NCBI RefSeq assembly: GCF_009914755.1 | Contig: NC_060941.1 | Source: the human T2T-CHM13v2.0 reference genome, Homo sapiens | Reading direction: 5' to 3' (one strand) | DNA: 64,000 nt | Shown here: piece by piece, positions 31,895 through 34,800 of the stretch | Numbering within the stretch: the first letter of the stretch is position 1 | Layout of the letters: every line of letters starts with the position of its first letter | Position numbers and translations under genes: made by a program | The notes under the pieces: generated by a model | Database searches by the model: none | Told to the model about the DNA's origin: nothing | What the model saw: the letters and a program-made list of their open reading frames with translations, nothing else

Positions 31895-34800
31895 CTGAGA
31901 GGAAAAGACAACAGCAAGCTAGGAAGGGTAGATGGAGTAGAATTCAGTTCAGGGGAGGAGAGGCTGCCAGTCAGATCCCTGGGGGAAACGCTGACGGAGG
32001 ACATTGGCACAGAAAGCCAGGGTGCACTCACTGGAAGCCGGTCGCATAGTCTGTTCCATCCACCCACTTCCAGGCTCCTTCAGGGTCACTGAGGCCCATC
32101 CAGGTGTATGCGGAGCCTAGATATTTCTGGACAAAATTCTGCGGTGACAGAAGGGCAGTGGTGACTTCTTCCCATCCCAGCCAACTCCTTAAACTAGTGA
32201 TTCTCAACTTTAGCTCTTCGTTAAATCAACTGAGGAGTTTGGAGATGTTTCTCTGGATGCTCAGGCCTATTAAATCTCTGAGGGTGTGGCACAGATGACA
32301 GTCATTCTGGAAGCTCCCAGATGATTCCAATGTGCGGCCAAGCTTAAGAACCATTTCCCTAAATGGGACATGTCTTAGGAACTGAGTACCAGAAGCCCTC
32401 ACCTGCTCCTCCCTGGAGTTGATGACCACCAGGTGGGCGTTCTTCAGCTGGCAGTACTTCTCAGCCTCGGCCCAGGACATCCCAGAGTGAGAGAACCAGT
32501 AGCAGCTGTCTTGGTGCTCCACCCAGTTGACAGGGCAGCAGGTCCCTTCAGTGGAGGCTGATTGGGGAGAAATAGGATAGGGTGGAGAGGCTGAGGCTCT
32601 GCCCAGTGGGCCATGGGCAGAAAAGTAGGGCCAGGTACTCCCCATACCTTCCTCACCATTGTTGTTGAGAGTAGCCACCTGGCAGGTCAGTTTCTTCAGG
32701 TCTTGCACCAGCTGCTGGACTCGCAGGAGCATTTCAGAATGAACTGGGACACACACAGATGGGCAGTGGGGACAGTGGCCTAGGTGTGCCTTCTGCGTAG
32801 TGTGTTCCTGGAGCTCAGATACCCCTGCACAGGGCCAAGCCAGGGAATGTTCCTTCCCGCCCCCACCCACCCCCTACATCATGGCCAGGTACAGCCATCA
32901 AATCTGCTTTGGATTCCTCTGCCCCTGTTTCTCCAGCCTGCTCTCCAGAGAAAGCATGCTGCCTTTCTTTCTTTCTTTCTTTTTTTTTTTTTTTTTTTTG
33001 AGACGGAGTTTCACTCTTGCTGCCCAGGCTGGAGTGCAATGGCGCGATCTCGGCTCACGGCTACCTCCGCCTCCCGTGTTCAAGCAATTCTCCTGCCTCA
33101 GCCTCCCTAGTAGCTGAGATTACAGGCGCCCACCACCACACCCAGCTATTTTTTGTATTTTTTTTAGTAGAGACGGGGTTTCACCATGTCGATCAGGCTG
33201 CTCTCGAACTCCTGACCTCGTGATCCACCCGCCTCGGCCTCCCAAACTGCTGGGATTACAGGCGTGAACCACTGCGCCCGGCCTGCATGCTGCCTTTCAA
33301 GCTGCTGGCTGAAGGGGAGGGCAGTTCAGCACCAGGAGTCTGTTCCCACCTCCACTGTGTCTGAGCGCCTAGCCCCCCACACCCATACTCGGAGGGTCTC
33401 TCACCTGCCTGCCGTTCCTGCTTGAAACCCTCCACCTCAGCTTTCAGAGATGCTATCGTTTCTTCCAAGCTGCTGCCTGGAGGACACGGAGACTTGGCTT
33501 AGGGGTCAACTTCCTCCTCCCTGGCCTGGCCCCAGCCCAGAGCCCCATCCAAACCAGACTCACCCTGGGAAGTCAGTGCCTGGATCTCCGCCACAGTGTT
33601 TGAGGTGAAGTTGCTAAAATCTGTTCTCAGGGTCACCAGGTCCCTCTGAAATTTGGAATCTAAACAGGTGGATGGGAAGGTCAGTGCTGGGATTCATCAG
33701 GTCCTCTGTACCAGCACCGAGCAGGGCCCTCCATAAGCATTGCCTTATTGGGTCCTCACGGCAACCCAGTGGGGCAGGCACTATTATTGTTCAATATTGC
33801 CGATGAGGAAACTAAGCCTCAGAGAGGTGAAGTAATTTGAGTACATAACCCAACTACTCAGTGACAAAGCCAGCAGCCATCCTGACTATGGGTCCGTCAA
33901 CTCTCTCCATCACTACCCCCACCACCGTCCCCATCAATCACTCCATCAGTGCCCCCCCACCATTCCCATCAATCACTCCATCAGTGCCCCCATCACCATT
34001 CCCATCAATCACTCCATCAGTGCTCCGACCACTGTTCTCATCAATCACTCCATCAGTGCCCCCCACTATTCCCATCAGTCACCCCATCAGTGCTCCCATC
34101 ACCATTCCCATCGATCACTGCATCAGTGCCCCCCACCATTCCCAACAATCACTCCATCAGTGACCCCCACCACCATTCCCATCAATCACCCCATCAGTGA
34201 CCCCCCACCGTTCCTATCAATCACTCCATCAGTGCCCCCCCACCATTCCCATCAATGACTCCATCAGTGACCCCCAACCATTCCCATCAATCACTCCATC
34301 AATGCCCCCCACCATTCCCATAAATCACTCCGTCTGTGCCCCCACCACCGTCCCCATCAATCACTCCATCAGTGCCCCCCTACCGTTACCATCAATCACT
34401 CCATCAGTGCCCTCTCCTCCATTCCCATCAATCACTCCATCAGTGCCCCATCAGTGCTTCAGTGGCTCTGTTGTGACCCCCATGACTGTTGGTAGCACTG
34501 CCCTCACCATGCCCCATTGTTATCTCCACAGCTGCCCCCAACACTGTGCCCTGCATTGCTCCTACTGTGGACCTCACCATCGCCCCACCACTGCCCTACT
34601 GTAGCACCCCATTATTTATCTTCTACCCCATTATTTCTCTCTTCCCTGTCCACCCCTGTGACCCTCACTTTGGAATCCAACCACACAGATGATGACCAGC
34701 AGCAGGAGGCCGAGGCCCAGGGACAGCAGGAGATGGCAGGGCCCAGAGCAGAGACGCTGCAGGAGGGACTGGAGAGGAAGTGGCCCTGCAAGAGGAGAGA

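What the first reader, a model, noticed from the sequence alone, without database searches (positions are those of the whole stretch)
32904..33308. Fossil neck exon inside functional CLEC10A, split by an Alu
Seen: removing the Alu (14-bp TSD GAAAGGCAGCATGC on the minus strand, TT|GAAA nick site) rejoins a 74-nt segment with an intact acceptor, 96 nt after exon 5. It reads [20 protein letters not shown] and, allowing a 2-nt insertion, ESKA: 24 codons, phase 1. Its donor is AT instead of GT. It occupies the same slot as the pseudogene's extra neck exon. Inference: the human-lineage receptor lost one coiled-coil neck repeat that rodents keep, shortening the stalk. Whether the Alu, the donor mutation or the indel came first can be tested.
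Basis: partly seen in the sequence, partly recalled or inferred. Interest (0 to 1): 0.8.

Follow-up and report, generated by a model that had tools for sequence, protein, structure and literature searches.

The report
Dead neck exon in human CLEC10A
Intron 5 of the human immune lectin gene CLEC10A holds the broken, Alu-split remains of a 24-residue stalk exon that rodents, carnivores, bats, whales and some lemurs still use, so the human receptor stands on a shorter stalk.

Summary
A perfect 14-nt direct repeat (32954-32967, 33285-33298) flanks a 317-nt sense-oriented Alu. Without the Alu, a 74-nt segment starts 96 nt after exon 5. It follows a good acceptor and ends before AT instead of GT.

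Most other mammalian CLEC10A proteins carry a second 24-residue neck module, here called 5b, between the exon-5 and exon-6 equivalents. These include mouse, 21 other rodent models, many laurasiatherians, Otolemur and Propithecus. The human relic matches Otolemur's module at 17 of 24 residues. It ranks first of 127,214 six-frame windows against a profile of non-primate 5b modules.

None of 27 catarrhine models has the module. Three lesions exist, namely the Alu, the dead donor and a 2-nt insertion, and each alone is enough to disable the exon.

- **Platyrrhines:** the same slot holds a near-copy of exon 5 instead.
- **Tarsier:** both tarsier models lack the module.
- **Timing:** the date of loss and the order of the lesions remain open, because no primate DNA was available.

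I found no description of this relic in print. It is a clean case of a known kind of event and of moderate interest.

The parts
33405..33476 (-). CLEC10A exon 5, the functional 72-nt, 24-residue neck module in phase 1-1. It is the old tandem paralogue of the relic.
   Evidence: Hub annotation. Phases and splice sites were recomputed. A 22-nt stretch at the acceptor end is 86% identical to the relic's start.
33309..33404 (-). 96-nt intron between exon 5 and the relic, ending in the preserved acceptor (pyrimidine tract plus CAG).
   Evidence: 13 of 17 pyrimidines at -20 to -4, like the gene's working acceptors.
33285..33308 (-). 5' piece of the fossil exon (24 nt). Its last 14 nt (33285-33298) are target-site duplication copy 1.
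32968..33284 (-). Alu element, sense to the gene, with its A-rich tail and (GAAA)n at 32968-33002. Read in the exon's frame it gives a stop 18 codons into the exon.
   Evidence: It differs by 9.1% (7.3% at non-CpG sites) from the majority consensus of 29 full-length Alus in the window, placing it 24th of 29 in rising order of non-CpG divergence.
32954..32967 (-). Target-site duplication copy 2, identical at 14 of 14 positions to 33285-33298.
   Evidence: family D3.
32904..32953 (-). 3' piece of the fossil exon (50 nt). It includes a 2-nt surplus at 32917-32918 that breaks the frame.
   Evidence: The Alu-less 74-nt version shifts the frame and gives a stop inside exon 6.
32902..32903 (-). Dead donor: AT where GT is required.
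   Evidence: CAG|atttga against gtgag in six real internal donors and gttcga in the pseudogene copy.
32657..32824 (-). Exon 6 (32657-32743) with its alternative 81-nt 5' extension (32744-32824), the 27-residue insert of the long isoform. This is the next exon downstream and is now spliced directly to exon 5.
   Evidence: Hub annotation. The same 27-residue extension appears in lemur and dolphin models.
22450..22522 (-). Counterpart of the fossil exon in the CLEC10A-like pseudogene. It is 73 nt with cag|...|gt borders.

Best explanation
The segment is the dead remnant of a real cassette exon of CLEC10A, here called exon 5b. The exon was 72 nt in phase 1-1 and encoded a second 24-residue coiled-coil module of the neck.

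The ancestral boreoeutherian receptor had a neck of about 114 residues: exon 4 (32), exon 5 (24), exon 5b (24) and exon 6 (29), plus a short linker. In the lineage leading to humans, at the latest in the catarrhine stem, the exon went out of use.

The relic now carries three lesions, and each alone is enough to disable it:
- a sense-oriented Alu of S-type age inserted after codon 8, which brings an in-frame stop;
- a G-to-A change at donor position +1;
- a 2-nt surplus that shifts the frame.

The exon is symmetric, and predicted models in several species that keep it already skip it. Exon 5 therefore joins exon 6 in frame and the gene stays functional. The result is a neck 24 residues shorter. 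That is about 3.5 nm if helical, an inference from 0.15 nm rise per residue.

Shown here: the anatomy, the homology, the phylogenetic distribution in protein models, and the effect of each lesion on the reading frame. Inferred: that the exon was used in the human ancestor, the dating, and any effect on trimer geometry or function.
For: **Anatomy.** The repeat, the Alu, the 74-nt rejoined segment, the acceptor and the AT donor are.

**Homology.**
- The rejoined reading scores 24.9 bits (20 residues) and 30.5 bits (24 residues, 2 nt skipped) against a matrix of 37 distinct non-primate 5b peptides. It ranks 1 of 127,214 six-frame windows.
- Against the exon-5 matrix it scores 0.4 and 1.1 bits.
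- It shares 17 of 24 residues with Otolemur P0045 ([24 protein letters not shown]) and 15 of 24 with Propithecus P0043.

**Distribution (threshold 20 bits).**

| Group | Models with the module |
|---|---|
| Rodent (includes Mus musculus P0150, GRDLSQKVTSLESTVEKREQALKT) | 22 of 24 |
| Laurasiatherian | 37 of 48 |
| Strepsirrhine | 2 of 8 |
| Catarrhine | 0 of 27 |
| Platyrrhine | 0 of 3 |
| Tarsier | 0 of 2 |
| Colugo | 0 of 1 |

The necks can be read directly.

**Slot.** The pseudogene 11 kb away keeps the same exon order, with a counterpart at 22450-22522 that still has GT.

**Lesions.** With the Alu, a stop falls 18 codons into the exon. Without it, the 74 nt shift the frame and give a stop in exon 6.

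**Cassette behaviour.** Models with and without the module exist in one species: Propithecus P0043 against P0156, and Rhinolophus P0096 against P0095.

**Annotation.** The hub's table lists no exon of any CLEC10A transcript in 32825-33404.

**Print.** Passages of PMC3671775 report an interruption of the heptad pattern in the middle of the human neck.
Against: - All comparative evidence comes from protein models. Most are automatic predictions clustered at 90% identity, so a rare isoform could be hidden inside a cluster.
- The 5b matrix was built from the same rodent and laurasiatherian proteins that it then counts. Those two tallies are circular, although the module is visible by eye. One exon-5 peptide reached 19.0 bits, close to the 20-bit threshold.
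- Several non-catarrhine models also lack the module: both tarsier models, the colugo, 6 of 8 strepsirrhine models, 11 of 48 laurasiatherian and 2 of 24 rodent models. Absence from a model therefore does not prove genomic loss.
- No genomic DNA of another primate and no RNA-seq could be examined. Use of the exon in the human ancestor, the date of loss and the present silence of the 33308 acceptor all rest on inference and on the annotation table.
- Only one human assembly was read, so polymorphism was not examined.
Confidence: 0.9

Rival explanations
1. Early death with the Alu as a passenger. Exon 5b was already out of use in the haplorhine stem through the donor change or the indel. The Alu landed later in neutral intron sequence. 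Platyrrhines then rebuilt a two-module neck by tandem duplication of exon 5.
For: Both tarsier models (P0046, P0160) lack the module. In Aotus, Saimiri and Callithrix the slot holds [24 protein letters not shown]. It scores 71.6 bits on the exon-5 matrix and -11.4 on the 5b matrix, and is identical in all three species. Mean identity between exon-5 and 5b peptides is only 7.6 of 24. By my own inference, that makes gene conversion of 5b by exon 5 less likely than a fresh duplication. The Alu's divergence of 7-9% fits an S-type age. By recalled knowledge that is younger than the tarsier split.
Against: Tarsier models are predictions, and species that keep the exon also have skipped isoforms. An independent loss or simple skipping in tarsier is therefore possible. 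No platyrrhine or tarsier DNA was seen, so it is unknown whether a 5b relic lies downstream of the platyrrhine copy.
Confidence: 0.35
2. The Alu was the killer. Its insertion into the exon in the catarrhine stem ended use of the exon. The donor change and the 2-nt surplus are later decay.
For: The Alu sits inside the coding part and brings a stop 18 codons in. Its divergence places it among the older Alus of the window, 24th of 29 in rising order of non-CpG divergence. That is compatible with an insertion before apes and Old World monkeys split, and all 27 catarrhine models lack the module.
Against: The age estimate is crude. It uses a consensus of only 29 local copies and ignores subfamily differences. 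The 14 of 14 identical target-site copies lean slightly towards a younger insertion. The tarsier models lack the module, and tarsier cannot share an S-type Alu (recalled knowledge of Alu history).
Confidence: 0.3
3. The site is not fully dead. The preserved 33308 acceptor is still used at a low level with a cryptic donor, giving stop-containing transcripts that are degraded. This would make it a non-productive or poison exon that trims CLEC10A output.
For: The acceptor is as pyrimidine-rich as the working ones. Any inclusion would bring a premature stop.
Against: No transcript in the hub's annotation table uses it. No RNA data could be examined. The acceptor's preservation is not beyond what neutral decay allows over 20 nt.
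Confidence: 0.08
4. Chance resemblance, or an intragenic duplicate of exon 5 that was never spliced in any ancestor of humans.
For: Exon 5 and the relic share a similar start, 86% over 22 nt, so an exon duplication did take place at some point.
Against: The relic is of 5b type and not exon-5 type: 30.5 against 1.1 bits, rank 1 of 127,214 windows, and 17 of 24 identical to a galago module that is part of the predicted protein. The same module is spliced into mouse and many other mammalian proteins.
Confidence: 0.02

Closest known systems
Second 24-residue neck exon of CLEC10A / Mgl1 / Mgl2 in rodents and most other mammals
   Same: It occupies the same slot between the exon-5 and exon-6 equivalents and has the same length class and phase. 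The hydrophobic spacing is the same (positions 4, 8, 11, 15), and it shares 12.0 of 24 residues on average with 37 non-primate modules.
   Different: The human copy is split by an Alu, has AT at the donor and is 74 nt rather than 72. It appears in no annotated transcript.
Middle neck module of ASGR1 (Pfam Lectin_N, PF03954)
   Same: It is a 24-residue coiled-coil module of the same gene family. 5b peptides are closer to it (9.1 of 24) than exon-5 peptides are (6.1 of 24). The Pfam model holds a single such module, so ASGR1 and human-type CLEC10A match it in one stretch, while 5b-bearing proteins match in two.
   Different: ASGR1 has only this one module. Human CLEC10A also ends up with one module, but it kept the other one (exon 5).
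Exon disruption by Alu insertion and lineage-specific exon loss in primates, for example the human CMAH exon loss (recalled; PMC5767959 seen only as a search listing)
   Same: A primate-specific retroelement sits in a lost exon of a gene linked to glycan biology.
   Different: Here the exon is symmetric and the gene stays functional. It is also not shown that the Alu caused the loss.
Neck-length variation in DC-SIGN / L-SIGN (recalled, not tested here)
   Same: Stalk length of a myeloid C-type lectin changes in whole repeat units.
   Different: Those repeats are 23-residue tandem units inside one exon and vary within the human population. Here one separate exon is fixed as lost across a clade.

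Membership tests
CLEC10A neck exon 5b (cassette coiled-coil module) | Lies between the exon-5 and exon-6 equivalents. | tested here: met
   It starts 96 nt after exon 5 and lies upstream of exon 6. The order is collinear in the pseudogene. In proteins the module sits between the two equivalents.
CLEC10A neck exon 5b (cassette coiled-coil module) | Sequence of 5b type and not exon-5 type. | tested here: met
   30.5 bits on the 5b matrix against 1.1 on the exon-5 matrix. Rank 1 of 127,214 windows. 17 of 24 identical to Otolemur.
CLEC10A neck exon 5b (cassette coiled-coil module) | 72 nt with an open frame in phase 1-1. | tested here: not met
   After Alu removal the segment is 74 nt. The frame shifts after codon 20 and gives a stop in exon 6. 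With the Alu, a stop falls 18 codons in. This is why it is filed as a relic and not a working member.
CLEC10A neck exon 5b (cassette coiled-coil module) | Working splice sites (AG acceptor, GT donor). | tested here: not met
   The acceptor is present, with 13 of 17 pyrimidines plus CAG. The donor reads AT.
Alu retrotransposon insertion | Dimeric body of about 280 nt, an A-rich tail, flanking target-site duplication, and a T-rich/A nick site. | tested here: met
   The two monomers appear as repeat D2 and the 14 of 14 duplication as D3. The tail lies at 32968-33002. The element aligns over its full length with 28 other window Alus. The duplication begins GAAA after TT on the Alu strand. The endonuclease consensus itself is recalled.
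Alu exonisation (Alu-derived exon in a mature transcript) | Part of the Alu is spliced into an annotated or observed mRNA. | not testable with these tools
   The hub's table shows no exon in 32825-33404. No RNA data are available.
Pfam Lectin_N (PF03954) | Match above the gathering score. | not tested
   Intact relatives match strongly: P0045 208 bits, P0006 176 bits, P0150 176 bits. The relic itself is too short, and as a rejoined sequence it was not handed to the tool.

The most novel reading that the evidence does not exclude
Neck length of this receptor has been lost and then rebuilt within primates. The ancestral module 5b died in the haplorhine stem, which would explain the tarsier models and the catarrhine relic. 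Platyrrhines later restored a two-module, 115-residue neck by duplicating exon 5, while catarrhines stayed short. That would point to selection on stalk length, meaning the reach or spacing of the GalNAc-binding heads. It would also mean that mouse MGL1/MGL2 and human MGL differ systematically in geometry.
Probability: 0.3. Interest if true: 0.55.

Novelty: new member of a known kind. Interest (0 to 1): 0.4.

Why it matters
CLEC10A (MGL, CD301) is a much-studied receptor for tumour and pathogen GalNAc glycans, and mouse MGL1/MGL2 are its usual models.

The human and Old World primate receptor lacks a whole coiled-coil module that the mouse proteins have. Neck-dependent properties may therefore not transfer between species. 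These include trimer stability, the height of the binding heads above the membrane, and the interruption of the heptad pattern described in PMC3671775.

The relic also dates and explains the length difference at the DNA level. Together with the platyrrhine exon-5 copy, it gives a small, testable case of modular change in the stalk of a C-type lectin. The mechanism itself, loss of a symmetric exon with an Alu in it, is ordinary.

Tried and rejected
- **Faulty matrix:** the first version of the 5b matrix was contaminated. A loose pattern admitted exon-5 peptides from skipped isoforms, so human exon 5 scored 39 bits. I discarded those numbers and rebuilt the sets with stricter rules.
- **Third homologue search:** the search with the Otolemur neck region was meant to find more primates or a catarrhine isoform with the module. 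It scored only 21 candidates and added just one primate model, a second tarsier model that also lacks the module.
- **Heptad scan:** a crude heptad-register scan showed register breaks near module borders in all species. It is too rough to say whether removing the module changes the register, so I draw no conclusion from it.
- **Decay as a clock:** functional exon 5 differs between human and Otolemur at 8 of 24 residues, by my own count on the sequences. The relic differs at 7 of 24. Protein-level decay therefore gives no clock.
- **Literature:** six searches and passages from four papers gave no mention of a lost exon or pseudoexon in CLEC10A. The supplementary alignment of PMC10538476 (its Fig. 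S12) was not opened and may show the gap.
- **Not run:** no structure or complex prediction was run, because no claim here depends on one.
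Full report
**1. What is in the sequence**

On the minus strand, the sense strand of CLEC10A, exon 5 (33476-33405) is followed by a 96-nt intron. That intron ends in a pyrimidine-rich tract and CAG. From 33308 downward come 24 nt, then a 317-nt Alu (33284-32968) with its A-tail and a short (GAAA)n run at the low-coordinate end, then 50 nt down to 32904, followed by AT.

The repeat finder reports a perfect 14-nt direct repeat at 33285-33298 and 32954-32967, and also the internal similarity of the two Alu monomers. 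Removing the Alu and one repeat copy in a script gives a 74-nt segment.

The frame then runs into a stop beyond the exon end.

The acceptor has 13 of 17 pyrimidines at -20 to -4, against 12-15 in the gene's seven working acceptors. The donor reads CAG|atttga, against gtgag in all six real internal donors.

**2. Is it homologous to a real exon?**

I used the last CLEC10A coding exon, translated by reference (P0001), to query the large protein database with longer proteins allowed.
- One search returned 216 proteins at E<=1e-5 among 222 candidates, with the best 120 listed.
- A second search used the neck of a marmot protein (57 of 283 candidates).
- A third used the neck of the galago protein (12 of 21 candidates).

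Together they gave 160 stored proteins.

Reading the necks directly shows a modular layout. A 32-residue module (exon 4) is followed by a 24-residue module (exon 5), and in most non-primate CLEC10A proteins by a second 24-residue module, here called 5b. Then comes the 29-residue exon-6 module.

Examples of 5b:
- Otolemur P0045: [24 protein letters not shown]
- Mus musculus P0150: GRDLSQKVTSLESTVEKREQALKT

I built a position-specific matrix from the 37 distinct non-primate 5b peptides. Results:
- The human relic scores 24.9 bits over its first 20 residues.
- It ranks first of 127,214 twenty-residue windows in all six frames of the Alu-less window.
- The next window scores 3.5, and the background mean is -62.6 with sd 10.3.
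- Over 24 residues it scores 30.5 bits on the 5b matrix, 1.1 on the exon-5 matrix and 10.5 on a matrix of ASGR1's single middle module.
- It shares 17 of 24 residues with Otolemur and 15 of 24 with Propithecus.

A first version of this matrix was contaminated and is discarded.

**3. Who has the module?**

I scanned each named model with the 5b matrix at a threshold of 20 bits.

| Group | Models with a 5b-type segment |
|---|---|
| Catarrhine | 0 of 27 |
| Platyrrhine | 0 of 3 |
| Tarsier | 0 of 2 |
| Strepsirrhine | 2 of 8 |
| Colugo | 0 of 1 |
| Rodent | 22 of 24 |
| Laurasiatherian | 37 of 48 |
| ASGR1-named | 0 of 18 (best 16.0) |

Of the 27 catarrhine models, 22 show an uninterrupted exon-4 to exon-6 neck by my reading.

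Twenty-nine of the 160 stored proteins were left out of the tally. These were the query, unnamed entries, fragments and chimeric-looking models.

Caveats:
- The rodent and laurasiatherian counts are circular, because the matrix was built from them. The module is nevertheless plain to the eye.
- One exon-5 peptide reached 19.0 bits, close to the threshold.
- Most models are automatic predictions, and clusters at 90% identity may hide isoforms.
- Species that keep the module also have models without it. Examples are Propithecus P0043 against P0156 and P0042, and Rhinolophus P0096 against P0095. This suggests a cassette exon, and it means that absence from a model is not proof of genomic loss.

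**4. Surroundings**

A CLEC10A-like pseudogene on the same strand at about 21850-22920 aligns collinearly with exons 4 to 8. It contains a 73-nt counterpart of the relic at 22450-22522 with cag|...|gt borders.

Pfam's Lectin_N model (140 positions) contains only one middle module. Human-type CLEC10A (P0006) and ASGR1 (P0105) match it in one stretch. Proteins with two middle modules match in two stretches: P0045 and P0150 (5b-bearing) and P0032 (platyrrhine exon-5 copy).

5b peptides are closer to ASGR1's module (9.1 of 24 on average) than exon-5 peptides are (6.1 of 24). The human gene thus appears to have kept the CLEC10A-specific module and lost the one more like ASGR1's. That reading rests on short peptides and is tentative.

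**5. The lesions**

Each of the three is enough on its own.
- With the Alu in place, the frame meets a stop 18 codons into the exon.
- Without the Alu, the 74 nt shift the frame and give a stop inside exon 6.
- The donor lacks GT.

The Alu differs by 9.1% (7.3% at non-CpG sites) from the majority consensus of 29 full-length Alus in the window, placing it 24th of 29 in rising order of non-CpG divergence. In the diagnostic middle stretch it follows that majority consensus.

Calling the Alu S-type, and placing S-type activity at roughly 30-45 million years ago, is recalled knowledge and not a tool result. That age is compatible with an insertion in the catarrhine stem, but the estimate is crude.

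**6. An unexpected point: platyrrhines and tarsier**

Aotus, Saimiri and Callithrix (313 residues) do have 24 residues in the slot. However, the segment is a near-copy of exon 5 ([24 protein letters not shown]), identical in the three species. It scores 71.6 bits on the exon-5 matrix and -11.4 on the 5b matrix. Their own exon 5 differs from it at 0 to 3 internal positions, by my count.

Both tarsier models lack any second module. Two histories fit these facts.
- **Loss in the catarrhine stem.** Platyrrhines would then have converted or replaced 5b separately, and tarsier would have lost or skipped it independently.
- **Loss in the haplorhine stem.** The Alu would then be a later passenger, and platyrrhines would have rebuilt the neck by duplicating exon 5.

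Exon-5 and 5b peptides share only 7.6 of 24 residues on average. I judge conversion less likely than duplication, which leans towards the second history, but this is inference. Only genomic DNA of these species can decide, and none is reachable with the tools given.

**7. Mechanism and consequence**

The exon is symmetric, so its loss leaves the frame intact. The receptor remains functional with a neck 24 residues shorter, about 3.5 nm if helical (inference).

[quoted passage not shown] The exon 5/exon 6 junction, where the module is missing, lies in that part. My own register scan was too crude to test the link.

Passages of PMC10538476 describe a model of the trimer with a long coiled coil and heads held perpendicular by a disulfide. 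Neck length would then set the height of the heads and not their spacing (inference).

**8. Known or new**

Six full-text searches found no mention of a lost exon, pseudoexon or Alu in this intron. Neither did passages read in four papers: PMC3671775, PMC7404283, PMC10707269 and PMC10538476.

Older subscription papers on the human and mouse genes are not in the library. The supplementary family alignment of PMC10538476 was not opened. The 24-residue gap between mouse and human proteins must be visible in any alignment.

The relic is therefore a new, well-supported instance of a known kind of event and not a new kind of thing.

**9. Verdict**

Confidence that this is the dead orthologue of a working mammalian neck exon is 0.9. 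The order of the lesions and the date of loss are unresolved. Interest is 0.4.

Noticed in passing
window 21850-22920, minus strand: A decayed CLEC10A-like pseudogene with counterparts of exons 4, 5, 5b, 6, 7 and 8, at 66-74% nucleotide identity to CLEC10A. It is not in the hub's gene table. Many mammals, including tarsier, carry a second 'CLEC10A-like' gene on the same contig as CLEC10A, and mouse has Mgl1 and Mgl2. This may therefore be the relic of the lost second human copy.
   Followed up: partly
proteins P0032, P0033, P0034 (Aotus, Saimiri, Callithrix): The platyrrhine neck carries two near-identical exon-5-type modules in tandem. The second is identical across the three species, while the first varies. 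This points to a duplication or conversion in the platyrrhine stem.
   Followed up: partly
window 63669-63820 (ASGR2 exon) against 32403-32557 (CLEC10A exon 7): The two exons are 92.8% identical over 152 nt and 84% at the protein level. The other carbohydrate-recognition-domain exons of the two genes are only 46-50% identical at the protein level, and the exon-6 equivalents only 29%. This looks like gene conversion between CLEC10A and ASGR2 confined to this one exon.
   Followed up: no
window 32744-32824, minus strand: The 27-residue insert of the long human isoform, made by an upstream alternative acceptor of exon 6, is also present in lemur (Prolemur, Propithecus) and dolphin (Tursiops, Globicephala) models. 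Its cysteine-rich end is conserved, so this alternative acceptor is old. In those models it appears in isoforms that lack module 5b.
   Followed up: partly
proteins P0069, P0084, P0056 (grey seal, flying fox, spear-nosed bat models): Some models keep 5b but skip exon 5. Both 24-residue modules may therefore behave as cassette exons in other mammals.
   Followed up: no
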